The notes under the pieces: generated by a model
Database searches by the model: none
Seen by the model: only the letters and a program-made list of their open reading frames with translations
Told to the model about the DNA's origin: nothing
DNA from: an uncultured virus (IMG/VR IMGVR_UViG_3300020447_000005)
Taxonomy: Duplodnaviria > Heunggongvirae > Uroviricota > Caudoviricetes
IMG/VR virus record: IMGVR_UViG_3300020447_000005
Direction: 5' to 3' (one strand)
Length of the DNA: 64,000 bases
Made by a program: the position numbers and the translations under genes
Shown here: piece by piece, positions 6,405 through 43,351 of the stretch
Position numbering within the stretch: position 1 is the stretch's first letter
Layout of the letters: the number at the start of each line of letters is the position of its first letter

Positions 6405-7343
6405 CTAACTAAAGGTTGCCTTAGCCAAACCGCTGGTATGACCAATGGTTCCGCCTAGAGTCTCATAAGCAAAGAACTCAATCATGTACGCTTCACGACG
6501 AATGTACATAGTTGTGTCTTCCAAAATATAACTCTTACCAATAAACTTCGGATCTGCAAAGTGATACATCGTATTAGTCGTGACCAAGTTCTTCTTGATC
6601 GTGATAATCCACTTTACGCCCATGAACTCAGCAAGAGCCCAACCGTTACGCATAACCTCTTCACTCAAGTCACCGCCCATTTCGTTGCGACTGAACTTAG
6701 CCACTTCCTTAATGGTGATGTTGTTGAGAAGCACAACGTGAACTTCAAGGTTCGACGGAGTGTTAGGCATGATCTTCAGGCTGTCCCAAAGCGTGTCGCG
6801 GGTGATTCCACCAGCGATAGCTTCGTGCTGGACGACCTCTGACGTAGGAACAATACCGCCAGCAGAACCAACAGCAGTGTTAACCGCAGTGAGAAACTTA
6901 CCGTCTTCCTCTGCCAGCATGTCCTTGATAGCATTGTCGCTAAGGACCTGTCGGATATCCATGTACCAAGTACGAAGCTCATCAACGTCCTTCGTGAAGC
7001 GAGGCGTCACGATACGGTCGAAGCTCACCTTGTAGCGAGGTCCACGAATGTAAAGGTTAGTCGGAAGAGTCGCGAAAGGAATCGAGATGGCCGCAGGGCT
7101 ATCAGGTTCCTTGTCCACGATCTTGACCGGCTTATCTGTATCGACCTGTCGGTCGAGTTCATCATTACTGATGGGCAACGGCGGAATAATCCGTCGATAA
7201 AAGCCATCTTCACGCATCTTTGTGCGTGTGAAATCGTTAACAGCATCAACGGCTTGCTTCTCCAGAAGTGGATCTCTTGATGCCAGCTTCTCGAAGATTG
7301 CCTCATTGAGGAGTTTTGATTCCTCTTGAGTGGTAGCGGACAT
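6405..7343 (-). CDS. Major capsid protein (HK97-like fold)
   Basis: 312 aa with strong SD AAGGAGGT. Pattern R.KMREDGF.RRI.P...F.RI.TP.F.KDVDEL...KDM.AEED.KF resembles large-phage capsid proteins. Gene order is protease-scaffold-decoration-MCP. Confidence 0.75.
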   Translation of the reverse strand: MSATTQEESKLLNEAIFEKLASRDPLLEKQAVDAVNDFTRTKMREDGFYRRIIPPLPISNDELDRQVDTDKPVKIVDKEPDSPAAISIPFATLPTNLYIRGPRYKVSFDRIVTPRFTKDVDELRTWYMDIRQVLSDNAIKDMLAEEDGKFLTAVNTAVGSAGGIVPTSEVVQHEAIAGGITRDTLWDSLKIMPNTPSNLEVHVVLLNNITIKEVAKFSRNEMGGDLSEEVMRNGWALAEFMGVKWIITIKKNLVTTNTMYHFADPKFIGKSYILEDTTMYIRREAYMIEFFAYETLGGTIGHTSGLAKATFS

Positions 7344-7392
7344 GGAATATTACCTCCTTGTAAAGGATAATTTAAAAACTGAGTCTTGCTGC

Positions 7393-7941: not shown

Positions 7942-7999
7942 GGTAAATCCTCCTTGAATTTAAGTAAACAGACTAATACTAGCCTGCGTCCATTTCATG

Positions 8000-8434: not shown

Positions 8435-8462
8435 GATAGAAACTCCTCCGTGAGCGTTAATA

Positions 8463-19596: not shown

Positions 19597-22494
19597 TTAC
19601 CGATAAACTCCTTCACGATCTTTTAAAGCTTGTTGATAGGCCTCTTCTTCATGACCGCCCTCAAACCACCCCCAGTTATCTCGATCATAACTGTCTAAAG
19701 AACGTTGAGGCTTGGGAGGCGCATTCTTTGCCCATATCTGAGAGGGATCCCAATTCTCTCGACGAGCTTTCTCTGCTTGATACTCAGGTTCCTCGTGGCC
19801 CCACTCAAACCAATTGGATTTACGATCATAATCTTCAAGAGGACGTTGGTTATGAGCATTATAAAATGCGTCACTCAAGCCGCCCAGCCTAGCCGTTGTA
19901 TTCTTACCTTCTGATAATGCTGTCAATGCGCCTTGTGGATTTAATCCTGCGGCTAAGGCCATTCCGCCTGCTGCCCCGCCATAGCCCTGCACCGCTTGAG
20001 TAAACCTTGGGCCAAAAAACGGAGTATTAAACAAACCGGGAAGCTGCTGCTGTGATTGCACACCTCCCTTTCGATAACCTTGCACACGTTGTGCAGGATT
20101 ATAAGGCTTCGCAACATTGCCAGTTATAAAACTACCGTCACTTAAATTTTGCTTTGCTGCGGGGACATTAACGGGCATCGGTTTTGGAGTATGTGGATTA
20201 GTCACGGGGGGAACACTCCCTGTATTTTGTGCGGGGGGAACTGTGTTCTGTGTATTACCTGAGGTACTTGTCTGAGACGGAGGTGTAATTGTAGCAGGAG
20301 GTGTATACGGATCTGGCTGAGGCGACGTGTCTAGAATATTCGAGGACTGCATCGATTCGGATATTTGATGCACCGGCGACCCAGGACGGGGGCCGGAATG
20401 CCCGTAAGTGTTTTGATAGTTCCTTAACTGTTCGTGTTGCCATTTTCTCTGTTGTAACTGTTTGCTCCGAGAAGGAGACAGGGAAGAATAACGATTCGGA
20501 TCGTAGGTAAAGTCTCCGTAGCTGTGAATACGATTCCACTCAGCATCTTGTGTATTTTGTGCGGGGGGAACTGTGTTCTGTGCTGTCTTAACTTCACCAA
20601 TTTCTTCAACAGGATACCCAGGACTAGGCGGTCTAACGATAGCTCCAGGAGCACGACCAAAATCTACACTACGCGAAATGCTGGGAACAAAACTAGTTCC
20701 ACGTTCTTCGCTTACCGCACCTCGCTGCGCGCCGGTCAATAAACTCTTCTTCAAACCAGAACCATAGAACCGCGTCAACCAATCCGGATCATGCTGTAAG
20801 TTAGACATACCCCGGATCATCTCAGGCTCAAATGGCGGCGGATCATTATGCACCGCAACTTCATCCACCCCAAAAGCATTGAACTCTGCCAACATCGAAG
20901 GTCGTATTTTTGTACCAATTGTATAGTGAAGCACAGGTTGTTCTAAATACTTACCTACTGCTTGTTTTGGCTTAACGCTTCTATGTCCCTCACGTGGCTT
21001 CCACTTATGTTCCAATGTGGAGTAAGGAACAACATCGTCAGGAACGTTGTCGCCGTATTCTTCTGTTAGACGAACATGGTTAATAAGCCCACGTGAGAGT
21101 ATTTCAATATTGCGGCGATGTGCGGAAAGATTAGCTCCTTCCATCGCCTCTTTCAAAGCCTTAACAAAATACTTCCGTCCGTCACCAATACCTTTATACT
21201 GTGTCACCAACGAAGGGTTAGGGAATCCCTCGCTAATAACATCTCCGGCTTCGACTTTATCGCCCTTCTTAACGTGGATATCGTACCCATCAGCAACGTA
21301 ATGCTGCTTATCGTTAACAGTGACGTATTTACCGCCAGCCGGTGCGTCTTCTATACGCTGTACAGTGCCATCTTCTGTTGTGTGAGCTGCACCACCCTTA
21401 AACGTCTTAGGTACTTGTATCAACTGGTTAATATACTTAAAGCCACTAACGGCCTTTTCTTCGCCTGCTACCCCGCCGCTGTGCTTTGCCGACAACTGTC
21501 CCTGACTCAAAGGTTCGCTCAAAGACTGCGCTGCCTGTAATCCAACCTGCGTGCCTCGCCCCGGCAAACGGCCTGTTTCTCGAACACCCACATCTCGTGC
21601 ATAAACGCCACCAGAGGGCGAACCGCCCACAAGCGGCGAACGGATAAGAATCTTATTCTTACCCAGTCGCTTTAAATGCTTTCGCACCTTCGGAGTAATT
21701 ACAGTGTTCTTCTCGTAAGGGCCAGTATCTATAGCTAGTAAAGCTCCCTCACTGTCTGCGTCCTCGGTATCAACCGGCATTCCACGTTTAATGCCACGTT
21801 GACCCTCGTCTGCATAATCCTTATCCGTAATCACTAATCGATGAGCTACTTGATTCAATTGTTTAGCTAAGAAACCCGCGTCTTGTGTGGCGAACTTCGT
21901 CGCTATAATTCCTTTGCGAGCCCCATACGAACCTGCCCAATACTCAGCAGGAGATAACCCCTCGGAATAACTTCTCGTTACTGGGATAGGCAATGGGTCA
22001 TCACGTTGATCGGCGTACAGTAAATCGCTACCCAGTAAACTTGACAAATTCATACGATTGCCACGAGTACCCGACAGAACTTGGAAAGCAAGAGGATTTT
22101 TGTCCTCTAAAGCCTCGGCCATGATTTCTGCCTGCTGAGGGGCCATTTCTGACCCGACTGCACGCACAATGAGTTCATTACGTTTTTTATCCGTAATATC
22201 ATCACGAGATAGAATTGCATCCATCTTGGCACGGACGCGTTCTCGAATACGATGACCGGCTTTAGATCGCTTTAAATGACGTAAACCAAAAGAGAAGCTA
22301 CCGCCCTCTTGCGCACCTTCACGACCTATATTATTTAATGCAAAAGAAATCTCGCGATAATCGTTTGGATACCGAGTAGCAACTTCATGCAAAACTTTTT
22401 TAAGCTCTTTCTTGTCTAATACACGATCGTAGTCCCGGAGATCTTCCGGAAGAGCTTCGTTTACAAAGAGTTGACCCACCGTAGCATTCAGCAT
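19597..22494 (-). CDS. rpoC: DNA-directed RNA polymerase beta'-like subunit, C-terminal half (bridge helix, trigger loop) with a low-complexity C-terminal extension
   Basis: ATVGQ (cf. TTVGR), SGTRG (SGARG), YGARKGIIATKFATQDAGFLAKQL (bridge helix) and AAQSLSEPLSQGQLSAKHSGG (trigger loop), plus RRNIEI (KHIEV). Confidence 0.93.
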   Translation of the reverse strand: MLNATVGQLFVNEALPEDLRDYDRVLDKKELKKVLHEVATRYPNDYREISFALNNIGREGAQEGGSFSFGLRHLKRSKAGHRIRERVRAKMDAILSRDDITDKKRNELIVRAVGSEMAPQQAEIMAEALEDKNPLAFQVLSGTRGNRMNLSSLLGSDLLYADQRDDPLPIPVTRSYSEGLSPAEYWAGSYGARKGIIATKFATQDAGFLAKQLNQVAHRLVITDKDYADEGQRGIKRGMPVDTEDADSEGALLAIDTGPYEKNTVITPKVRKHLKRLGKNKILIRSPLVGGSPSGGVYARDVGVRETGRLPGRGTQVGLQAAQSLSEPLSQGQLSAKHSGGVAGEEKAVSGFKYINQLIQVPKTFKGGAAHTTEDGTVQRIEDAPAGGKYVTVNDKQHYVADGYDIHVKKGDKVEAGDVISEGFPNPSLVTQYKGIGDGRKYFVKALKEAMEGANLSAHRRNIEILSRGLINHVRLTEEYGDNVPDDVVPYSTLEHKWKPREGHRSVKPKQAVGKYLEQPVLHYTIGTKIRPSMLAEFNAFGVDEVAVHNDPPPFEPEMIRGMSNLQHDPDWLTRFYGSGLKKSLLTGAQRGAVSEERGTSFVPSISRSVDFGRAPGAIVRPPSPGYPVEEIGEVKTAQNTVPPAQNTQDAEWNRIHSYGDFTYDPNRYSSLSPSRSKQLQQRKWQHEQLRNYQNTYGHSGPRPGSPVHQISESMQSSNILDTSPQPDPYTPPATITPPSQTSTSGNTQNTVPPAQNTGSVPPVTNPHTPKPMPVNVPAAKQNLSDGSFITGNVAKPYNPAQRVQGYRKGGVQSQQQLPGLFNTPFFGPRFTQAVQGYGGAAGGMALAAGLNPQGALTALSEGKNTTARLGGLSDAFYNAHNQRPLEDYDRKSNWFEWGHEEPEYQAEKARRENWDPSQIWAKNAPPKPQRSLDSYDRDNWGWFEGGHEEEAYQQALKDREGVYR
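20221..20582. repeat. 32-bp exact direct repeat (20221-20252 and 20551-20582) encoding QNTVPPAQNT
   Basis: tgtattttgtgcggggggaactgtgttctgtg occurs twice. Confidence 0.9.
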
Positions 22495-23878: not shown

Positions 23879-26800
23879 TTACTTTTCTAGTACCTGAACT
23901 CGATCTGTTAAAGACAAATCTCCCCGATCATATGCTGTTCGAACGTCTGACATGGAACGGAATATCTTTCGCGATTTTTCACTTTTTCGCTTTGTCGCGT
24001 GCCATAAACCTCCAACATACTCGTTAGAGGGTGCATGTACCACCGACTTAAAATCGGAAGGGCTTAGTAAATTACGGCTCGGCAGTAAACGTTCAAAAGA
24101 TTCTTTTCTCGCCTCCTCTGTCGTAGGGACGTGATAATTCATCGCGTCTCCGTCAAAATCTGCATTAAAGCCCCCCACTATTAAAGGTGATACCTGTAAA
24201 GTATTACCTTTAGTCAATTGAGGTTTAAACGCCATGATGCCAAATTTATGTAACACAGGGGCACGATTAATGATAACAGGTCGGTGCTCCATTTCCTCTA
24301 CCAATGCATTACGCGCTAATTCAGACCTGTCCTTGATGTTCTGCATCGCTTGAGTAATTGGCATTCCTTTTCGTCGCAATCGTCGAACAACAAACTTCTG
24401 ATATACGTCAAAAGCTTTATCTTCAGGAAGACCTACCGAATCCATGTCTAAATTAGGGTTCGGCGATATGACAGCTCGACCTACATTATCCACCGTGCTG
24501 CCAATAAGTTTTCTTTGTACAGTACCAAACTTAGGACTACTGCCAAAAACCTCTTTTAGAATACCGCGAACTTGTTTATCTCGGGATTTTTGACTAATTG
24601 GATCGCCAAGGCCGGTAACCGCTTTAAAAGCGTTATAAACTGCCAATCTTTCGTCGCCAACAGCGTCCCCTACCGATTTCCGCATATCCTCTAAATTGCT
24701 ATTAGCCTCAAACAATTCTTTGTATAAATAGTTAGCGTCATTAACTAACGGCATATCATCGCCCATCGTACTCACAGGGCGAAACATAGGCGGCAAAACA
24801 GGAACTCGCTTTAACATCCAGTCAGAAGGATGAATACCTAACTTCTTGGCGCTTTTGAGATACCCTAACTTGCGGATAGCAGTATCGCGTTCAGTCCGGT
24901 TTCCGTTTTCAATTAATGAACGGGACTCAGCCAATGCTTTATTTAGATCTAGAGATGTTAACGCTTTATGCACTGCTTTAGGACCAGTACCATACCCAGG
25001 CAATTCATTCACGCCTGCTATAACATCCTCAAACCCTTTTTTAGTTAAACCCAACGTTCTACGAATAGGTTCTTCCATTACTGGGTTAGGCATTGGCTCA
25101 GCGAGTTTAATGGCTGACCATTGATTACCATTATGTCCGCCAGTTAAAGCAGGATCAAATAAACCTCCTGCTACCGGGCGTAACCCCTCGTTCCAATTAA
25201 CGCCGCCAGAATTCTTTAACTCACGTGACCCTACTAAAGTATCAACGTCATTATTCGTTAACGCCATAATGTGTGTTTGCGTGCCCGATCGCTGTACGTT
25301 TACACCCGCAGCTTTTAACTGACTTACAAACTTTTTATACACCATTGGAACTTTAGGATCTTTCGGGTTATACCCCGACATAAACTGCAACCAATAGTCT
25401 TCATTGCGTTGGCCGCGAATAGCGCCTACATCGCGTAACGTCTCAGTAGCTCCATGAGATAGAAGAGCGTTAGTATCTAATAGAGCAACTCGCTTAGAGC
25501 CAGTTTCGCCGCCCTTAGCCGGAGTATCCTCCATTGAGTATGCGCCGCCTCCGCGAGCTTGTCCTTTTGATTCTGCTGTGTGATGTAGCTTCATAAAGAA
25601 ACGATTGCCTGTCGCAATGTCCTTTATTTTCTTATCCCGAGTAGGGTCGTAAACAGCATCAAGATCGGACATACCTTCACGACGTAACTCGTCATACACC
25701 CATTGAGACATATCGCGGCTGCTATCAAAATCTTGGATTTTAATAGGCGAGCCTCGCTTAGCCGCTATTTTGCCTAAATACAACTCAGCCATCTGAGCTG
25801 GATTAGTACGGCTAATTACTCCGAGTGGATTGAGGAGAACCTCATAGGGCTTACCATCCGTGTCGTGCGGCATCTGGTCGTCGGAGATGACGTCAGCAAT
25901 GACGCCTTTATCTCCGTATCTACCAGAGAGCTTGTCACCGACTTGCATGGAGCTGACGGTTTTGGTAACGACAACCGGCCCCTTCTTCCCCAGAACAACG
26001 TCGGTAACAACCCCGGTATCGTGATGATCCCATAAGATACTTGCGTCTGCATATCCGGACTGTCCTTTCTTATGCACTTTATGTTTAGATCCTTCGCGAC
26101 GTCTTATACCAAGTATAAGCGGATCTCCGTGCTTCACAACAGTTCCGGGTTTTATGACCCCATTATCGCCAAACCGAGACAACTCTTCTTTATTATACTT
26201 CCCAGGAAATAAACTAATGTAGGAATTCTTTCCTGATTTTGTCTTTTTATCAAATTCAAGATCGTATTGATACATGTGTTCGGAAGACATGCGATTTGCA
26301 AAGCCTTCTGATATGACAATTGCGTCTTCAAAATTCTTTCCCTGCCAAGCCAAATAAGCTACACGAGCATTTTTACCTAATGCTGTTGTTCCGCCTTTAT
26401 CCGTAAAATTGGATCTGCTAAGAAGCTGTCCTTTCTTAAACGGCATCCCTGCTTCAACAGTAGGAGTTTGGTGCAAAAATGTTTTTCTGTTGAAAGGAAA
26501 ATTATTATACAACTCTAAGTCTTCCTTTGTACCGTCATCATATCGAACTTTAATGCTATCGTCAGAAATGCTTAATACTTCGCCTCCCGACTTGGCATGC
26601 ATACTACCCATTTTAGAGCTGTACTCTTCTTCGTAACTACGTTTACCTTCAGTTCCTGGTATAGCCGATTGAACTAAAGGAGCTTCAGGATCAATCAAAG
26701 GTAAAGCTTGTGTAGACATACGACTCGCCATGACAAGTCGTTGTCCTTTCATCATCCCTTTGAGTGGGACAATGTTAGCCAACGGACTAAGTGCATCCTC

Positions 26801-28303
26801 AAAAGAAGGTAGCACTAAATCAATATCTTTTTTCTTAGCCCACCCCATCTTGCCCGCCTGCATAACTGCAACCCGCTTCCCAGCTTTATCCATACTCTCC
26901 GGAAAAGCGACAGTTAAATCAGACACGTCCTGAGGTGTTCGCCAAACTTTTTTAGATGTCCTAGGGTCAATGAACTGTGTGTATATTTTGCCGTCTTTAC
27001 CTTTTTGAGTACTCCGCGACATATACAGATCAACGCCAGTTCTAAACGACTCAGGAGTACGTAGCGGATCAATGTAACCCATGTGACTAGGCTGCACGTC
27101 GCGTGCTTCGTCAGGGATCGCATCAAGGGTGGGGATGCCTCCCTCACCAAGGCGACTGACCGAATAAAGCTTGTCATAGATCTCAGCAGGATTAATTTCC
27201 TCTAACGGCTGCCCTAAACCAGAAGACAACAACGTTGCCTCTATTTGTGATTTCAAAGCTGATGACGGCATACCCGATAAATTGCCCTTATTAGCCGCTT
27301 TCCACAACAAACCTCTTCTTATGCCGCCATAATCTTTAGCCACACGCTCTGAAAACAAATCCTCAGGACCCAGGAACTTTTGATAAGGAAGTGCGTCCCG
27401 ATTATCTACGTCTGCCTCGCCTTTGGATACATTCACAAGTTTCTTAGTGATATCCAATACTGCATCTAAAGTTAACCCTTTGTAAGGTTTCCCCAGTGTC
27501 CTACTTGTCACTTCAGGATCAAGTGTCATGTTTTTAAACTTATGCACTATCGCCTTACGAGCATTATTATCGTGCTCCTCTAAATCTTTTTCACTTAAAA
27601 ATTTCTCTTGTAACTTTGTGTGTGCGGACGCTTCGTCCTGAGGAAAGTTCGCCGCGTAAATGGCATCTCCCCACGTCTCTTTAAGTTGCTTGGGAGTGGC
27701 CCCCATTGTTTTGACGAGAGGCATAAGCGGTATCTTGGCCTGACCAGCTCGGAGATAGAAGATGCCTGTTTCTGGGTTAAGATAATAGCGGTGCGAAAGA
27801 CCTTTCCCAGGCATAATGTTGGCATGCGCTTCGATTTCTCCGTTATCCCGAACTCTAGTAAACACCCCCGGCCTTAGTCGTTGCTGATTGCGTAACGTAT
27901 ACTCACTACCTTTATGAATATATGTCCCACGCTGTGTAAGATGCGGCACAGTCATTAAAACAGATTTCTTACTGTCAACAACGTTGCCCGTTTCATTATC
28001 GGACAGCTCCCACGTGCCACGAAGACGACGACCTCTAGTCTCTCCGCTTAGCACTGCTGCCTTTTGATCTTTTAAAGAAAGCTTATCGGGGTCTTGATAA
28101 TGAACGTCACGTAACGCTAACGAATAATTAGCGTTCGTAACCGGTTCTAAACCTTGAACCGCCTCTTGTACGCGAGTATAGATATTACGTCGCGCCGCAG
28201 TTGTGTCGCCCACCCCTCGGCGTTCTTCCTTAGAGGCAACTGGCTGCAACGGAGAAAGTAACGACTTAGGCGACGAGTCTAAAATATTCATAGACATCGC
28301 CAT
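23879..28303 (-). CDS. rpoB: DNA-directed RNA polymerase: beta subunit fused to the N-terminal half of beta' (carries the catalytic NADFDGD)
   Basis: Beta motifs RDVQPSHMGYIDPLRTPE, NFEDAI, GDKLSGRYGDKGV, LNPLGVISRTN and MKLHH. Beta' motifs VPVLPPMFRP, NRAPVLH and FNADFDGDAM (NADFDGD at 24146-24166). Confidence 0.95.
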   Translation of the reverse strand: MAMSMNILDSSPKSLLSPLQPVASKEERRGVGDTTAARRNIYTRVQEAVQGLEPVTNANYSLALRDVHYQDPDKLSLKDQKAAVLSGETRGRRLRGTWELSDNETGNVVDSKKSVLMTVPHLTQRGTYIHKGSEYTLRNQQRLRPGVFTRVRDNGEIEAHANIMPGKGLSHRYYLNPETGIFYLRAGQAKIPLMPLVKTMGATPKQLKETWGDAIYAANFPQDEASAHTKLQEKFLSEKDLEEHDNNARKAIVHKFKNMTLDPEVTSRTLGKPYKGLTLDAVLDITKKLVNVSKGEADVDNRDALPYQKFLGPEDLFSERVAKDYGGIRRGLLWKAANKGNLSGMPSSALKSQIEATLLSSGLGQPLEEINPAEIYDKLYSVSRLGEGGIPTLDAIPDEARDVQPSHMGYIDPLRTPESFRTGVDLYMSRSTQKGKDGKIYTQFIDPRTSKKVWRTPQDVSDLTVAFPESMDKAGKRVAVMQAGKMGWAKKKDIDLVLPSFEDALSPLANIVPLKGMMKGQRLVMASRMSTQALPLIDPEAPLVQSAIPGTEGKRSYEEEYSSKMGSMHAKSGGEVLSISDDSIKVRYDDGTKEDLELYNNFPFNRKTFLHQTPTVEAGMPFKKGQLLSRSNFTDKGGTTALGKNARVAYLAWQGKNFEDAIVISEGFANRMSSEHMYQYDLEFDKKTKSGKNSYISLFPGKYNKEELSRFGDNGVIKPGTVVKHGDPLILGIRRREGSKHKVHKKGQSGYADASILWDHHDTGVVTDVVLGKKGPVVVTKTVSSMQVGDKLSGRYGDKGVIADVISDDQMPHDTDGKPYEVLLNPLGVISRTNPAQMAELYLGKIAAKRGSPIKIQDFDSSRDMSQWVYDELRREGMSDLDAVYDPTRDKKIKDIATGNRFFMKLHHTAESKGQARGGGAYSMEDTPAKGGETGSKRVALLDTNALLSHGATETLRDVGAIRGQRNEDYWLQFMSGYNPKDPKVPMVYKKFVSQLKAAGVNVQRSGTQTHIMALTNNDVDTLVGSRELKNSGGVNWNEGLRPVAGGLFDPALTGGHNGNQWSAIKLAEPMPNPVMEEPIRRTLGLTKKGFEDVIAGVNELPGYGTGPKAVHKALTSLDLNKALAESRSLIENGNRTERDTAIRKLGYLKSAKKLGIHPSDWMLKRVPVLPPMFRPVSTMGDDMPLVNDANYLYKELFEANSNLEDMRKSVGDAVGDERLAVYNAFKAVTGLGDPISQKSRDKQVRGILKEVFGSSPKFGTVQRKLIGSTVDNVGRAVISPNPNLDMDSVGLPEDKAFDVYQKFVVRRLRRKGMPITQAMQNIKDRSELARNALVEEMEHRPVIINRAPVLHKFGIMAFKPQLTKGNTLQVSPLIVGGFNADFDGDAMNYHVPTTEEARKESFERLLPSRNLLSPSDFKSVVHAPSNEYVGGLWHATKRKSEKSRKIFRSMSDVRTAYDRGDLSLTDRVQVLEK

Positions 28304-35838: not shown

Positions 35839-36419
35839 CCAGATCTCCAAACAGGACCACCCGCAAAAAATCGACCGTGGAAATCCGAACAAAACGGATC
35901 ATCGCTGTCCTCTACGGCTAACAATAAATGTGGCGCTGCTTTATTAACATAGTCCTTAGCGGATAGTAAACACTCACGACGATGTTTTCCTAAAATTAAA
36001 ACACAATTAAAATAACCTTGCGGAGCAGGTGGTTGAACGTAATGCTCCAGACGTTCTTCATACCACACGTCTGCATCCGTTTGCGATCGAATCCAGTTTT
36101 CATCGTCTGCTCGTGAAATAACGCCGTGTAATTCAAAAGAAACACTACGTTTAAATTGAGATAAAACTTGATTGACGTGCACAATATCTCCTGCACGTCC
36201 CCACACAAGACACCGCATACCATCAGATTGGGCGGCAAACCGAATGAATCCAGATAGAAGGCGGTGCAATTGCCGAATAACAACGCCCGGATGAGAAGGA
36301 TAGACGTAAAAATACGTCGAAGAACATTCCTGCAAAGAATCTACTGTCTGAAGCCTAAGATCTTCAAAAGTTCTTCTAGGGTATTGCCCTAAATTAATAT
36401 CAGGCATTTCCATGTACAA
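35835..36419 (-). CDS. Hypothetical protein, possibly a degenerate methyltransferase-like fold
   Basis: 194 aa. FNCVLILG.H...C.....YV resembles the C-part of SAM-dependent methyltransferases. Confidence 0.5.
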   Translation of the reverse strand: MYMEMPDINLGQYPRRTFEDLRLQTVDSLQECSSTYFYVYPSHPGVVIRQLHRLLSGFIRFAAQSDGMRCLVWGRAGDIVHVNQVLSQFKRSVSFELHGVISRADDENWIRSQTDADVWYEERLEHYVQPPAPQGYFNCVLILGKHRRECLLSAKDYVNKAAPHLLLAVEDSDDPFCSDFHGRFFAGGPVWRSG

Positions 36420-36918
36420 GTCCTGCCCAATCTATCCGCTCCTGCGCTGCCCATTTCTCAATCTCGTCAACCGATCTCACTGGAACGGGCTTACCGTTAT
36501 GTACTAAACGAGATCCTGGGCCAATTGCGTGCGTAACCTGATAGTAACTAACAAAAACCTCGTCGTCTGCGTTGATAGGTTTAAGCGCTACAACAGCAAG
36601 ATTATCTCCGTCTTTCACAAGACGAGCATTAGGCTCACGACCGTGATTAGTGGCCATAGACGCTTCTGTCATCTCCCAATCATCAGTACCTAGGTCAGCA
36701 TTATTATCTTTCTCGCCAGCATGAAACAATTCTTCGCCTACTTCGAAGTCCTTTTCAGCAAATAAGCCCTTCCCAACTTTCTTACTGGCAGCAACGTACC
36801 AGTTCTCTTCGTCTTCTGCTCTCTTCACGGGAATAATATCCCTGTTTGCAGCTTCTTTTAGCAAACAGAACAAACTTCCTTTAAGTGCAGATTCTTTAGG
36901 CGGTATTTTATTATTCAC
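36400..36918 (-). CDS. SET-domain protein (putative protein lysine methyltransferase)
   Basis: S...GKGLFAEKDFEVGE, NHGREPN (NHSxxPN) and ALKPINADDEVFVSY (ELxxxY). GTG start with GGAGG SD. Confidence 0.85.
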   Translation of the reverse strand: MNNKIPPKESALKGSLFCLLKEAANRDIIPVKRAEDEENWYVAASKKVGKGLFAEKDFEVGEELFHAGEKDNNADLGTDDWEMTEASMATNHGREPNARLVKDGDNLAVVALKPINADDEVFVSYYQVTHAIGPGSRLVHNGKPVPVRSVDEIEKWAAQERIDWAGLVHGNA

Positions 36919-36966
36919 AATTAAACAACCTCCACGCAACAATGTAGAAATTTTCTCACAACGCTA

Positions 36967-36996
36967 TTGACGATGTCCCCCGAAGGAGACTAACAT
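36967..36996 (+). promoter_or_regulatory. Candidate sigma70-type promoter for csrA
   Basis: TTGACG-18 nt-TAACAT, about 47 nt before the csrA ATG. Confidence 0.45.
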
Positions 36997-37043
36997 AATT
37001 CCAGCACTTAAATGGAATGTAACCCCCCGGAAGGAGTCTGGAA

Positions 37044-37250
37044 ATGCTAGTCTTGTCCCGTAAGAAAGATGAAACCATTGTTATCAATAATGGGAACGAC
37101 GACATCCACATTACTATTGTGGACATCAGGGGTGATAAGATTCGAGTGGGCATCAACGCTCCTCCAGAAGTTTCCATTCATCGAGAAGAAGTTGCAACAG
37201 CTATAAAAAATAAAAAAATAGCTTCTAAAAATGTCACAACTACTAGCTGA
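37044..37250 (+). CDS. csrA: Carbon storage regulator CsrA/RsmA (RNA-binding translational regulator)
   Basis: MLVLSRKKDETIVI...DIRGDKIRVGINAPPEVSIHREEV. AAGGAG SD. Confidence 0.95.
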   Translation: MLVLSRKKDETIVINNGNDDIHITIVDIRGDKIRVGINAPPEVSIHREEVATAIKNKKIASKNVTTTS

Positions 37251-37635
37251 TCTCAGCTACTAAAGCTATCACACTCAAAGTTGCGGTGATTATCATCACA
37301 ACAAGTCCTGCAATTACTTGACTACGACTCAACGTCCGTGCTGCCGCAATAGTCGTACAGTTAGTTGCAACTTCTTCCAGCCACGAATGCTGTGAAGCCG
37401 TCTTTTGCTCCAGCGTAGTAAGTCGCTGTGCTATAGAAGGCTGTCCATTACCATCGCGCACAAGCTGACAAAGAGACTCTACATCATCCTTCATATCTAC
37501 AGTTTTTTGATCTAGCGCAGATAGTCGCTGAAGAATCTGATTGTTAGTCTCAGAAACTTTGTAGTAATCTTTACGCAAGCCATTGAAAAGCTCAACAGTA
37601 GCTCGGTCAAAACCGTTATCTTCTGTTTGTCCCAT
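37243..37635 (-). CDS. Coiled-coil protein with C-terminal transmembrane helix (holin/XhlA-like architecture)
   Basis: Heptad pattern, DGNG motif and hydrophobic C-terminus VIAGLVVMIITATLSVIALV. AGGAG SD. Confidence 0.55.
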   Translation of the reverse strand: MGQTEDNGFDRATVELFNGLRKDYYKVSETNNQILQRLSALDQKTVDMKDDVESLCQLVRDGNGQPSIAQRLTTLEQKTASQHSWLEEVATNCTTIAAARTLSRSQVIAGLVVMIITATLSVIALVAEIS

Positions 37636-37696
37636 CCTGGGCTCTCCTATCATCCATGAAAACTGATGACCTTCTAGGATCCCCTGCCCTAGAACC

Positions 37697-38754: not shown

Positions 38755-38961
38755 TCAATCGTTAGTAACGTTCAGCAAATACCAAGTAGCAATCTCAGTC
38801 TTTGAATGCACGTTCAATTTTTTTCGAATACGAGCGGCATAGGTTTTAATAGTCTCATAACCGAGACTTAACTCCACAGCAATCTCACGGTACTTCTTTC
38901 CTTTAACTATCAAACGTATTACATCTAATTCACGATCACTTAAAGTAATATCAGTAGCCAT
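38755..38961 (-). CDS. Stand-alone LuxR/GerE-type HTH transcription regulator
   Basis: LSDRELDVIRLIVKGKKYREIAVELSLGYETIKTYAARIRKKLNV. Confidence 0.9.
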   Translation of the reverse strand: MATDITLSDRELDVIRLIVKGKKYREIAVELSLGYETIKTYAARIRKKLNVHSKTEIATWYLLNVTND

Positions 38962-40694: not shown

Positions 40695-42176
40695 TTAAAC
40701 GCCTGCCGGTTCAACTTTCTCCACTGCGTCTTCGTTAGAATGCATTCTAATAGTTGTGGCTAAACCCGCCTTTTCCATAACACTTCGAGTGTATTCCAAA
40801 TGATCAGGTGGAATATCCGAAGCAACGCTATTCGCGTGGGCGACAGAAGCAAACCGACCAAAAAACTCTTCCCGAGACGACTTATTCCTTGTGTGATAAT
40901 ACGCAATAGTTGTACAAGGACCAGGAAACCAATCCGGCGAAGTGGGTAATACTACAGTCTTAGCTTTGCCGAAATTACGCTCGATAAATTCCCGGTCTTC
41001 TCCGGCATCTATCATATCAGCGTCATATAAATTTAACTTACCGTCATCACGCGTTCTAGGAAACAATACGGTGCCCGGCAACCCGCTAGGATCCGCAAGC
41101 AGGCACAACATGTTACGCTCGATATCAATACGTACTTGCTCAGAAAGTGTGACGCAACATCCAGGTTGCCGAACAGCCATCTGAATAAAAATACGATGTA
41201 AATGATTATGGTCGTCATCGTCTATCGTAAGAATCCACTCGCCGCTAGCTTCCTCTATGGCTTTATTTCGCAACGCGCCGATAGTGGGATATTGAACAGG
41301 ATCAACACGAAATTCTTTTAATCTATCCCACTTATCATCTAGAACAGCGTAAGTAGGAGAAGCAGATACAATGATTACTTCGAAATTTGGATAGGTTTGG
41401 CGTAAAAAGGACGTTACCGTAGAACGAGCTAGATTAATACGCTCATCCTCGCCTGTAACCAAAATCGCCGAAACCTTGGGCATCAGCTGCCCCACAGAGT
41501 GGTCTGCGAGACCTCGCGGGCCGTCTAAACTAACCTTGTCCATGTCTATAGCTCCTTCCTTAGGCGTAAGAATTAAAAATCCTTGCTGTCTATAATCTCT
41601 AGTAAAGTTATGCGTACCACCAAAAGCCTCCTCTATAAATCCAATACCTCCCATGCCATATTTTTCATTAAACCCAGGAGGATTAGGTATCTCAACTCCG
41701 CTATCACCCACACGTACTTGAAGATCGTCAATAATAAAAACATCTGATGATTTTGGCCTTAATGATTTTATAACTTCAATCTCACCCTCTAGGGGCATAT
41801 GAATAGAAGGTTGATCTGCCATATGATCATGATCATTAAGGCCCAAATCTGCCCCAGGAAAGTGTGCGTCTAACCAAAAGAGTATAGGCACGTTCACATC
41901 AACATCAGAAAGAACACTTTTCAATCCAGATATTGTATCAATACGTAATAACGATAATCTATCATCAACAATAGTATTTTTACAGTGTTCGTGTAGCTCA
42001 TCAACGTACTCAAAAGAATATAATTCAAAAAAAGAATATCTCAACGCATGAGTTATTCCAACACCAAAACCAGTTCCTGATTCAATAAAAACAGCGCACC
42101 CGTAATTATCCATATAAGTCTGTAAATTATGTAAAAACAAATCGCTCACGATTAATCTACCGTAACAACTAAACAT
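40695..42176 (-). CDS. Fusion of a methyltransferase-like domain and a GT2 glycosyltransferase
   Basis: N-part FIESGT..G.G, FWLDAH and IIDD. C-part FLRQTYPNFEVIIV, IGALRN and IDDDD. Confidence 0.75.
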   Translation of the reverse strand: MFSCYGRLIVSDLFLHNLQTYMDNYGCAVFIESGTGFGVGITHALRYSFFELYSFEYVDELHEHCKNTIVDDRLSLLRIDTISGLKSVLSDVDVNVPILFWLDAHFPGADLGLNDHDHMADQPSIHMPLEGEIEVIKSLRPKSSDVFIIDDLQVRVGDSGVEIPNPPGFNEKYGMGGIGFIEEAFGGTHNFTRDYRQQGFLILTPKEGAIDMDKVSLDGPRGLADHSVGQLMPKVSAILVTGEDERINLARSTVTSFLRQTYPNFEVIIVSASPTYAVLDDKWDRLKEFRVDPVQYPTIGALRNKAIEEASGEWILTIDDDDHNHLHRIFIQMAVRQPGCCVTLSEQVRIDIERNMLCLLADPSGLPGTVLFPRTRDDGKLNLYDADMIDAGEDREFIERNFGKAKTVVLPTSPDWFPGPCTTIAYYHTRNKSSREEFFGRFASVAHANSVASDIPPDHLEYTRSVMEKAGLATTIRMHSNEDAVEKVEPAGV

Positions 42177-42199
42177 ATACCTTATAAGGTATACTCACC

Positions 42200-42505
42200 T
42201 TAACAATGTAACACTCCTGGGACATTCGTCAAAGTAACCGCAAGGCCGTCTTCCCATATAGAACAGTCCACAGGAACGGCTAAAAAATCGCCTTCTGCTA
42301 CTGTTTCCGAAGACGCTCCCTTATCCGTTAAACGAATAAAAACAACGCTCCCCCACGACACCAAAAATTCATGCTCTAAAACGTCTAAGGGATACGTACA
42401 ATTAGAAGCCCTACCATTAACCGATATTAGAAGGTTACGGTATTGTGTGCCAGTCGTCAGCTTGGAAAAAACGACTTTAACCTTACATCTGTCAAACTGA
42501 GACAT
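42200..42505 (-). CDS. Hypothetical protein
   Basis: 101 aa. No SD; the ATG abuts the ncRNA closing stem. Confidence 0.4.
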   Translation of the reverse strand: MSQFDRCKVKVVFSKLTTGTQYRNLLISVNGRASNCTYPLDVLEHEFLVSWGSVVFIRLTDKGASSETVAEGDFLAVPVDCSIWEDGLAVTLTNVPGVLHC

Positions 42506-42805
42506 AAAAACGGTAATTTGCAGGGGGATTGTAACCCAAAACTGCCATGGAAAACAGCATTAGCGAAAATCAAGCTTATTGTTCGGGAAGTTTGATTAAA
42601 CGCTACCATCTTTAGAGACTTTCAGCAACAACATATCAAACAACTGTTGTAAGGAATCCAGCTAGGCTTCGGGGGCCTGGCCGAAAAACAACTGTTTACT
42701 TGTCCCGTCGCATACATACCCGTTACCTCATCATCCATGATAAAGTGCGAGAAAAGTCGCTAACGTCTTAGTTAGACCACGCAAATTACCGTCCAAGAAG
42801 AAAGC
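42506..42805 (-). ncRNA. Candidate large structured ncRNA (about 290 nt) with its own promoter
   Basis: Perfect 12-bp closing stem ACGGTAATTTGC/GCAAATTACCGT (42510-42521 with 42781-42792) followed by a U run. Many internal stems whose G-U pairs favour the minus strand. No ORF. Confidence 0.65.
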
Positions 42806-42811
42806 GTAACG

Positions 42812-42840
42812 AAGCTAGCACACCCTACAACAACCGTCAA
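42812..42840 (-). promoter_or_regulatory. Sigma70-type promoter driving the ncRNA
   Basis: TTGACG-17 nt-TAGCTT with an extended -10 TG. Confidence 0.7.
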
Positions 42841-42870
42841 TACACCGAGAATAGTTCGTATTTTACGAAC

Positions 42871-43170
42871 TTAACGGCACCAACAATTGCCATAAGGCCC
42901 ACGAGAATAAAACGGAGCCGAATTCCAGTGCATTCGGCCCGGAGCCCAATGCAGATGATTGCCATGGCGGTAATAGCGGCCTGAACTCCAATTCCATTGA
43001 CCGCCCCGATATGGATTACCGTAGGGACTCACACCAAATCCCAGTTGAAAATTAAACAAACCAGTAGGCCTAACAGAAAACCCGGAGCGAAAATTTTGGG
43101 CTGCCCCTTCATTCACACTGACTAGCCATAAACCTATTACCGCAACAAAGACAAGAGCCAATTTTTTCAT
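42871..43170 (-). CDS. Secreted Gly/Tyr/His-rich small protein
   Basis: Signal peptide MKKLALVFVAVIGLWLV...GAAQ, then YYRHGNHLHWAPG. AAGGAG SD. Confidence 0.65.
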   Translation of the reverse strand: MKKLALVFVAVIGLWLVSVNEGAAQNFRSGFSVRPTGLFNFQLGFGVSPYGNPYRGGQWNWSSGRYYRHGNHLHWAPGRMHWNSAPFYSRGPYGNCWCR

Positions 43171-43228
43171 TACGTTTCTCCTTTAGTAATGAAGCTTAGA
43201 ATTATGAAGTCCATTTCACTAAATACTC

Positions 43229-43351
43229 TTACCACCATCCTACCTTAGTGCCAATCAAATACACACCAGCCAATACACCTCCTACAGCCGCTACTCTTCG
43301 GACAATCCGATACTTTCTCAAAAAATCCATGATAGGTCTGTTTCGCGACAT
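43229..43351 (-). CDS. 40-aa membrane peptide (not in the ORF track)
   Basis: GGGAG SD. MSRNRPIMDFLRKYRIVRRVAAVGGVLAGVYLIGTKVGWW. Confidence 0.55.
   Translation of the reverse strand: MSRNRPIMDFLRKYRIVRRVAAVGGVLAGVYLIGTKVGWW

What the first reader, a model, noticed from the sequence alone, without database searches (positions are those of the whole stretch)
42506..42871. Stand-alone ~290-nt structured ncRNA with its own sigma70 promoter and a perfect CsrA loop
Seen: a hairpin (AGTTCGTA/TACGAACT, 42853-42871) ends the upstream gene. Then come TTGACG-17-TAGCTT with extended TG, a 12-bp closing helix and a U run. Inside are GTCT/AGAC, CGTTAGCGA/TCGCTAATG (alternatively GACTTT/AAAGTC), TCGCA/TGCGA, a long irregular central hairpin and AATCAA/TTGATT. 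Possible pseudoknots are CGGGA/TCCCG and GTAAC/GTTAC. One hairpin presents TCATGGATGA (42731-42740), an exact CsrA consensus. I cannot assign it to tRNA, tmRNA, RNase P, SRP or 6S. Inference: an undescribed large phage ncRNA, possibly linked to CsrA.
Basis: partly seen in the sequence, partly recalled or inferred. Interest (0 to 1): 0.75.

Follow-up and report, generated by a model that had tools for sequence, protein, structure and literature searches.

The report
tRNA-shaped phage RNA with CsrA hairpin
A group of large marine bacterial viruses carries an uncatalogued, roughly 290-letter folded RNA whose outer shape resembles a transfer RNA and which displays the same protein-binding signal found at the start of the virus's shell genes, so it may act as a decoy that times virus assembly.

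Summary
The RNA is real. It lies on the minus strand (about 42805 to 42509) of a marine phage of about 200 kb. Three metagenomic homologues (82% identical) keep the promoter with a variable spacer, and 98.5% of predicted pairings, with 8 compensatory pairs. Rfam has no match.

The U run is not conserved, both pseudoknots break, and the RNA is not stand-alone: a conserved C2-fold gene starts 4 nt after the closing helix.

New here: the outer frame is tRNA-like (D-like arm, variable arm, T-loop hairpin). The T-loop hairpin is traceable in front of 11 of 13 C2 homologues with readable upstream sequence, and two of them have a true tRNA-Ala in between. The CANGGANG loop is kept in 4 of 4 copies. 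The phage encodes CsrA, as do 19 of 20 near-complete relatives, and 10 of 12 Shine-Dalgarno sites in the window, including the capsid gene's, are CsrA-type.

Best guess (0.4): a tRNA-framed, single-site CsrA decoy. Against it: only one site, CsrA-bearing relatives show no detectable copy, and no transcript data were available.

The parts
42835..42840 (-). -35 hexamer TTGACG
   Evidence: invariant in 4 of 4 copies, spacer variable
42812..42820 (-). extended -10 (TG-C-TAGCTT)
   Evidence: invariant in 4 of 4; only 3 of 6 consensus matches
42509..42805 (-). ncRNA, predicted primary transcript from about +1 = 42805 (inferred from promoter spacing); 5' leader 42794-42805 largely conserved
   Evidence: ends not mapped experimentally
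42780..42793 (-). P1 5' strand (acceptor-like closing helix)
42765..42777 (-). P2, D-arm-like hairpin (4 bp, 5-nt loop without the GG of a true D loop), preceded by U-purine
42752..42763 (-). P3 5' strand; pairs with 42612-42623, or alternatively with 42559-42567 as an anticodon-stem-like helix
   Evidence: P3 pairs never vary, so covariation cannot choose
42719..42751 (-). P4 hairpin; loop C-AYGGAY-G at 42732-42739 (CsrA consensus CANGGANG)
   Evidence: consensus from PMC4894983 passage
42625..42711 (-). P5, long variable hairpin, loop with CCCGA at 42668-42674
   Evidence: 6 of 8 compensatory pairs
42612..42623 (-). P3 3' strand (invariant)
   Evidence: lies in a block also kept in more divergent contigs
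42561..42605 (-). P6 hairpin, loop with second CCCGA at 42581-42589
   Evidence: loose end keeps the stem and the CCCGA part of the loop (read by eye)
42541..42558 (-). P7, variable-arm-like hairpin containing self-complementary CCAUGG
   Evidence: its 3' part is reflected in MAV-type peptides of distant homologues
42525..42537 (-). T-arm-like hairpin, GGG / 7-nt loop / CCC; U54-, A58- and U60-equivalents invariant
42509..42522 (-). P1 3' strand; no encoded CCA
42200..42505 (-). conserved 101-aa gene, C2-domain-like beta sandwich, ATG 4 nt after P1, no Shine-Dalgarno
   Evidence: (Z 10.0, rmsd 2.9, 93 aligned)
42205..42232 (-). second promoter of the same type (TTGACG-16-TACATT) at the end of the C2-like gene
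   Evidence: hexamers largely kept in L114 and L115 but inside coding sequence
37044..37250 (+). phage csrA gene; keeps the HREE motif with the R44-equivalent arginine
   Evidence: Pfam CsrA E 1.5e-22; alignment to solved CsrA; R44 role from PMC7366521 passage
36967..36996 (+). promoter-like TTGACG-18-TAACAT upstream of csrA
   Evidence: conservation not tested
7352..7361 (-). CsrA-type ribosome-binding site of the major capsid gene (6405-7343); similar sites at 7948-7957 and 8444-8453
   Evidence: capsid label from a 30%-identical annotated match

Best explanation
A phage-encoded ncRNA built as a tRNA-like frame (closing acceptor-like helix, D-like arm, variable arm, T-loop arm) around a 180-nt insert that displays one CsrA-type hairpin. 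Steps: (1) host-type RNA polymerase transcribes it from the TTGACG promoter, together with the C2-like gene [promoter conservation shown; transcription inferred]. (2) The tRNA-like frame lets tRNA-processing nucleases release a stable RNA of about 270 nt and frees the C2-like reading frame, whose start is otherwise buried against P1 [frame shown by comparison; processing inferred]. (3) The phage's own CsrA represses capsid and other late genes by binding their CANGGAGG ribosome-binding sites [gene and site enrichment shown; repression inferred from CsrA biology]. (4) The accumulating RNA binds CsrA through its loop and lowers free CsrA, acting as a threshold or timer for late translation [inferred]. 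That it is a real structured RNA: about 0.93. That the frame is tRNA-like: about 0.7. That CsrA binds the loop: about 0.55. The confidence given is for the whole chain.
For: Structure: 98.5% of cells paired, 8 two-sided pairs, 0 of 500 shuffles reach the covariation score; slid controls pair 32-52%. RNA 82% identical against 77% for the adjacent gene and 45-52% for the 60 nt upstream. Frame: relaxed ARAGORN draws a cloverleaf with a 183-nt insert at position 34/35; scores reached by 0, 2, 1 and 21 of 100 shuffles. A T-loop hairpin is compatible with 11 of 13 N-terminal read-through peptides of C2 homologues (31-79% identity), shuffle mean 2.3, 0 of 1000. In P0013 and P0020 a canonical tRNA-Ala(GGC) lies between that hairpin and the gene. 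A T-loop suffices for RNase P cleavage without a D-loop (PMC4919913 passage). CsrA: loop fits CANGGANG in 4 of 4, both changes falling on N positions; csrA in the window and in 32 of 50 related records, 19 of 20 near-complete; 10 of 12 SD sites in the window carry CAN against 6 of 118 internal GGA[GT]G, p 1.8e-9, and 5 of 6 relatives are enriched at p<0.05 uncorrected; capsid-gene RBS is CAN-GGAG in 40 of 42 distinct contexts, CAY in 36. Titration of CsrA by a leader with few sites has precedent (flaA leader, two sites; PMC4894983 passages).
Against: Only one GGA is conserved, whereas CsrA is a dimer and known antagonists have two or more sites. The model finds no copy in 50 related phage records, most of which have CsrA and the RBS motif, so the RNA is not required for the CsrA circuit, or is too diverged to detect. 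Two changes at N positions among four related sequences is thin (about 1 in 28 by chance, my estimate). About 85% of the RNA, including invariant P3 and two CCCGA loops, is not explained. The ARAGORN score (92.4) is below threshold, and real intergenic DNA of relatives gives 66 relaxed calls of 84-94 in 90 kb; L115 gave a different, weak call. The T-stem has 3 pairs only, there is no D-loop GG and no CCA. P1 extends 13 or more pairs, which may hinder RNase P (inference). The T-loop pattern was widened after seeing the peptides. Four sequences at 90% column identity are related, so shuffle counts overstate significance.
Confidence: 0.4

Rival explanations
1. A cis-acting 5' leader of the C2-like gene: P1 hides the start region, and processing or a switch between the two folds (P3+P6 versus the anticodon-stem-like helix), perhaps driven by CsrA, sets translation of that gene.
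For: ATG 4 nt after P1, no SD and no terminator in 4 of 4; link to the gene kept in distant homologues; both folds are compatible with every copy and within about 2 kcal/mol (ensemble) in 2 of 4.
Against: P1 is present in both folds, so the switch does not uncover the start; in P0013 and P0020 a whole tRNA separates RNA and gene, and in P0030 and P0034 the distance is 52-55 nt; P3+P6 is favoured by 5-10 kcal/mol in L114 and L115.
Confidence: 0.2
2. A structural or oligomer-forming RNA of the GOLLD/ROOL type, co-transcribed with tRNAs; the GGA loop is incidental or a tertiary contact.
For: GOLLD and ROOL are phage RNAs near tRNA islands that assemble through kissing loops (PMC12286853 passages); here there are two CCCGA loops complementary to an invariant CGGG, a self-complementary CCAUGG, and AUGG/CCAU complementarity; tRNA-Ala neighbour in two homologues.
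Against: All these contacts are 4-6 invariant bases, so untested by covariation; the AYGGA/UCCAU kiss has a mismatch in 2 of 4; no Rfam similarity and much shorter than GOLLD.
Confidence: 0.2
3. A tRNA mimic without an anticodon that decoys host tRNA-targeting defence nucleases or tRNA-binding factors.
For: The T-loop arm is the most deeply traceable part; no usable anticodon loop.
Against: No evidence here on host defence systems; no D-loop GG or CCA; does not explain the conserved insert.
Confidence: 0.1
4. A functional tRNA interrupted by a self-splicing intron, or an unusual tmRNA.
For: ARAGORN places a 183- and a 181-nt insert at 34/35, ending in G, in 2 of 4 copies; size is tmRNA-like.
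Against: Spliced anticodon loop is not conserved and has U at 37; no group I match in Rfam at E up to 10; no tmRNA call even at 80% threshold; no conserved tag frame, no G3-U70, no CCA (read).
Confidence: 0.04

Closest known systems
CsrA-titrating RNAs: CsrB/CsrC and RsmX/Y/Z, and the Campylobacter flaA leader (PMC4894983, passages)
   Same: CANGGANG in an apical hexaloop; same motif at target ribosome-binding sites
   Different: one conserved site instead of many (or two); phage-encoded next to a phage CsrA; embedded in a tRNA-like frame; no terminator
YrlA / bacterial Y RNAs (PMC4201824, passages)
   Same: ncRNA with a tRNA-like module, found in phages, lying next to a protein gene; RNase P substrate precedent
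   Different: no Rfam match; partner gene is C2-like, not Ro60; much longer; ends meet in the acceptor-like helix with a large internal insert
tmRNA
   Same: about 300 nt, tRNA-like ends with T arm, large insert where the anticodon loop would be
   Different: no alanine identity, CCA, tag frame or ARAGORN call; has D-like and variable arms
GOLLD and ROOL RNAs (PMC12286853, passages)
   Same: large structured phage RNAs of unknown function near tRNA genes
   Different: much shorter than GOLLD, no model match, tRNA-like frame, CsrA loop
allo-tRNAs and tRNA-Sec (PMC5389517, passages)
   Same: 8-bp-compatible acceptor, weak or short T-stem, long variable arm
   Different: no anticodon loop, no CCA, 180-nt insert

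Membership tests
Any Rfam 15 family | score at or above gathering threshold | tested here: not met
   0 in the window; only two chance snoRNA hits at E 2.6 and 5.3; 0 at E up to 10 for L115 and L111
CsrB/RsmZ-type sRNA | multiple GGA-bearing hairpin loops | tested here: not met
   one conserved GGA
CsrB/RsmZ-type sRNA | CANGGANG in an apical loop | tested here: met
   4 of 4 copies, loop unpaired
CsrB/RsmZ-type sRNA | binds and sequesters CsrA | not testable with these tools
   needs binding assay
CsrB/RsmZ-type sRNA | own intrinsic terminator | tested here: not met
tRNA | cloverleaf with acceptor, D, variable and T arms in register | tested here: inconclusive
   relaxed ARAGORN 92.4, 87.7, 90.8, 81.6, all below 100; shuffles and intergenic controls mixed
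tRNA | 7-nt T loop with U54, A58, pyrimidine 60 | tested here: met
   4 of 4 copies; 11 of 13 read-through peptides; position numbering recalled
tRNA | 7-nt anticodon loop with conserved anticodon, D-loop GG, 5-bp T stem | tested here: not met
tmRNA | G3-U70 acceptor with CCA and a conserved tag reading frame | tested here: not met
   0 calls at 80% threshold; frames differ between copies (read by eye)
Group I intron in tRNA | P3/P7 core and a spliced, conserved anticodon loop | tested here: not met
   no Rfam hit; spliced loop differs between copies; core elements judged from recall
YrlA Y RNA | adjacent Ro60/TROVE gene | tested here: inconclusive
   none among the 29 window proteins scanned, which include all neighbours within 6 kb; whole genome not held
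Retron msr-msd | reverse transcriptase gene next to the a1/a2 repeat | tested here: not met
   downstream gene is a 101-aa C2-like protein; no RT among 29 proteins scanned

The most novel reading that the evidence does not exclude
A natural tRNA-scaffolded CsrA decoy forming, with a phage-encoded CsrA and CsrA sites on capsid-gene ribosome-binding sites, a self-contained post-transcriptional timer for late gene expression in a widespread group of roughly 200-kb phages; the RNA is a new ncRNA class that may also oligomerise through its paired loops.
Probability: 0.3. Interest if true: 0.85.

Novelty: new variant of a known kind. Interest (0 to 1): 0.68.

Why it matters
Phage csrA genes are known, but the passages read from a 2020 survey (30 of 2517 phages, PMC7366521) give them no target or regulator. 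This locus supplies a candidate target set (capsid-operon ribosome-binding sites, conserved across the group) and a candidate RNA antagonist, so the role of phage CsrA becomes testable with one small protein and two short RNAs. It also adds an uncatalogued tRNA-framed RNA of a size suited to SHAPE and cryo-EM.

Tried and rejected
No RNA holder was listed among 24 sequencing runs; this says nothing about expression.

No DNA match in cultured phages or plasmids. BLAST and the covariance model over 50 of the 75 capsid-related records gave chance hits only; the other records were searched only with the C2 protein profile (0 of 30; 0 of 50). nhmmer on 185 intergenic gaps of six relatives and the window found only the window copy.

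Pattern scans: viral contigs gave 2, 1 and 2 loci and genome contigs 37; none held a full-length model match. 6 of 10 metagenome hits were chance. 0 of 150 Planctomycetota genomes matched the RNA model and 0 of 401 the C2 profile; these searches had no positive control. L120-L122, L236 and L237 were weak protein hits without the RNA.

A look-alike hairpin in G007 at 90494 is antisense to a coding gene: rejected. G001 24757-25195 is coding: rejected. An RNase P CR-V resemblance (recalled consensus) is lost in a divergent contig. No antisense target longer than 13 nt in the window. The C2-like protein had no convincing Atlas or viral-fold match. Cluster names for the C2 homologues could not be looked up, so their hosts stay open. 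Earlier findings: none returned.

Literature: searches listed no paper describing this RNA. In PMC10690425 the motif was not found in 6 supplementary files, but files 1, 2 and 4 were not searched, and 157 places mention Planctomycetes hosts; a fragment could be among those candidates.

Full report
Setting. The window is part of a large phage: two multi-subunit RNA polymerase genes, a ribonucleotide reductase and a csrA gene, and a capsid protein 30% identical to an annotated major capsid protein. The identical C2-like protein occurs on contigs up to 196,776 bases, and the runs holding the DNA are marine by label. A planctomycete host is a weak inference: the phage CsrA is 55-68% identical to the best hits in 25 of 61 Planctomycetota genomes, but no other phylum was sampled. 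The feature is on the minus strand, in the 365-nt gap between genes 42871-43170 and 42200-42505.

Is it real? Rfam and default ARAGORN find nothing. Laying four runs on the region showed divergent contigs matching mainly in blocks inside the RNA. A pattern built from those blocks returned 10 metagenome loci: one identical to the window (L112), three homologues (L111, L114, L115) and six chance hits. The four distinct copies keep both promoter hexamers while the spacer changes. The RNA is 82% identical, the adjacent gene 77% and the 60 nt upstream 45-52%. The consensus fold has 99 pairs; 98.5% of cells pair, 8 pairs change on both sides, and no shuffle of 500 reaches the covariation score. The structure was derived from the same four related sequences, so these controls lean favourable. 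One-sided changes give G-U pairs on the minus strand, and z-scores are lower there in all four.

The U run is not conserved and no terminator is called. Both proposed pseudoknots break in the homologues, and TCGCA/TGCGA has a mismatch in two. The upstream hairpin is not kept. The gene at 42200-42505 is real and folds as a C2-domain-like beta sandwich (pLDDT 81; best Z 10.0, rmsd 2.9, 93 aligned). Its ATG lies 4 nt after the closing helix, without a Shine-Dalgarno sequence. A loose end in two runs, read by eye, translates as the start of a divergent member of the same family, so the link holds there too.

Anatomy. P1 closes the ends. Inside, in order: U-purine, a 4-bp D-like hairpin, the P3 domain holding the GGA hairpin (P4) and the long variable hairpin (P5), P6, a variable-arm-like P7, and a 3-bp hairpin with a 7-nt loop followed by P1. 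An alternative helix pairs the P3 5' strand with the strand before P7, giving a cloverleaf with a 183-nt insert at the anticodon position. Both folds fit every copy; energies tie in two copies and favour P3+P6 in two.

How tRNA-like? ARAGORN scores (92.4, 87.7, 90.8, 81.6) are under its threshold of 100. They beat 100, 98, 99 and 79 of 100 shuffles, but intergenic DNA of relatives yields 66 relaxed calls of 84-94, the window's being second best, so this test alone is inconclusive. Better evidence came from C2 homologues whose predicted N-termini read into upstream DNA. Of 39 homologues, 13 had such extensions; 11 are compatible with a G-G-U-(G/U)-N-N-A-N-Y-C-C hairpin, 7 of them 17-23 nt from the start codon as in the window, against a shuffle mean of 2.3 (the pattern was widened after seeing the peptides). 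In P0013 and P0020 a canonical tRNA with anticodon GGC and G3-U70 lies between this hairpin and the gene (P0013 tested by script, P0020 by eye). This is peptide-level evidence for the 3' end only. It is not a working tRNA, tmRNA or intron-bearing tRNA: no conserved anticodon, D-loop GG, CCA or tag frame.

The CsrA link. The loop reads C-AYGGAY-G in all four copies, matching the high-affinity CANGGANG hexaloop (PMC4894983, passages). The phage csrA lies 5.3 kb away, keeps the RNA-binding arginine and has a similar promoter-like site. CsrA is found in 32 of 50 related records and 19 of 20 near-complete ones. In the window 10 of 12 recognisable SD sites carry the CAN prefix against 6 of 118 internal sites; five of six relatives show the same enrichment, G002 does not. 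The capsid RBS matches in 56 of 71 loci on a crude start pick and 40 of 42 distinct contexts on a refined one, 36 with CAY (L071-L076 left out, none of which matched). CAY is not expected from anti-SD pairing (recalled). Against: one conserved GGA only, and no detectable RNA in those CsrA-bearing relatives.

Mechanism. Most likely (0.4 for the whole chain) the RNA is a tRNA-framed, nuclease-matured decoy that titrates phage CsrA from late-gene ribosome-binding sites. Shown: conserved promoter, structure, loop, T-loop hairpin, csrA and RBS enrichment. Inferred: transcription, processing, binding and timing. A T-loop can suffice for RNase P (PMC4919913, passages), and leaders with few sites can titrate CsrA. 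Rivals: cis-leader of the C2-like gene (0.2), GOLLD/ROOL-like structural RNA (0.2; PMC12286853, passages), tRNA decoy against defence (0.1), spliced tRNA or tmRNA (0.04).

Novelty. It belongs to no Rfam family and fails the defining tests for CsrB-type RNAs, tmRNA, tRNA and retrons. It works, if anything, like a blend of a CsrA antagonist and a tRNA mimic such as YrlA (PMC4201824, passages). Searches listed no description; three supplementary files of PMC10690425 were not searched. PMC5389517 and PMC7366521 were seen as passages. I rate it a new RNA family made of known kinds of parts, interest 0.68.

Noticed in passing
window 7352-7361, 7948-7957, 8444-8453 and L001-L070: csrA is nearly a core gene of this phage group (19 of 20 near-complete records), and the capsid-gene RBS is a conserved CsrA consensus site; this circuit is of interest independent of the RNA.
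   Followed up: yes
window 42200-42505: A phage family of stand-alone C2-domain-like proteins (39 homologues) without a Pfam match; C2 domains are mostly known from eukaryotic membrane-binding proteins.
   Followed up: partly
window 37650-37659: A second TCATGGATGA covers the start region of the gene convergent with csrA (37243-37653).
   Followed up: no
window 36967-37043: csrA leader has two CCCC(C)G(G)AAGGAG-like segments; the first shares CCCCCGAAG with the P5 loop of the window RNA.
   Followed up: partly
window 42175-42192: Perfect palindrome just downstream of the second promoter; not kept in L114 or L115, whose next gene also lacks the N-terminal methyltransferase-like half of 40695-42176.
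   Followed up: partly
window 23879-28303 and 19597-22494: RNA polymerase split unusually: one protein carries Rpb2-type domains followed by Rpb1 domains 1-2, the other Rpb1 domain 5.
   Followed up: no
window 36400-36942 and 38755-38961: SET-domain protein and LuxR-type helix-turn-helix gene near csrA.
   Followed up: no
window 43081-43324: Second island where many divergent contigs match, over the start of gene 42871-43170 and the short ORF 43229-43351.
   Followed up: no
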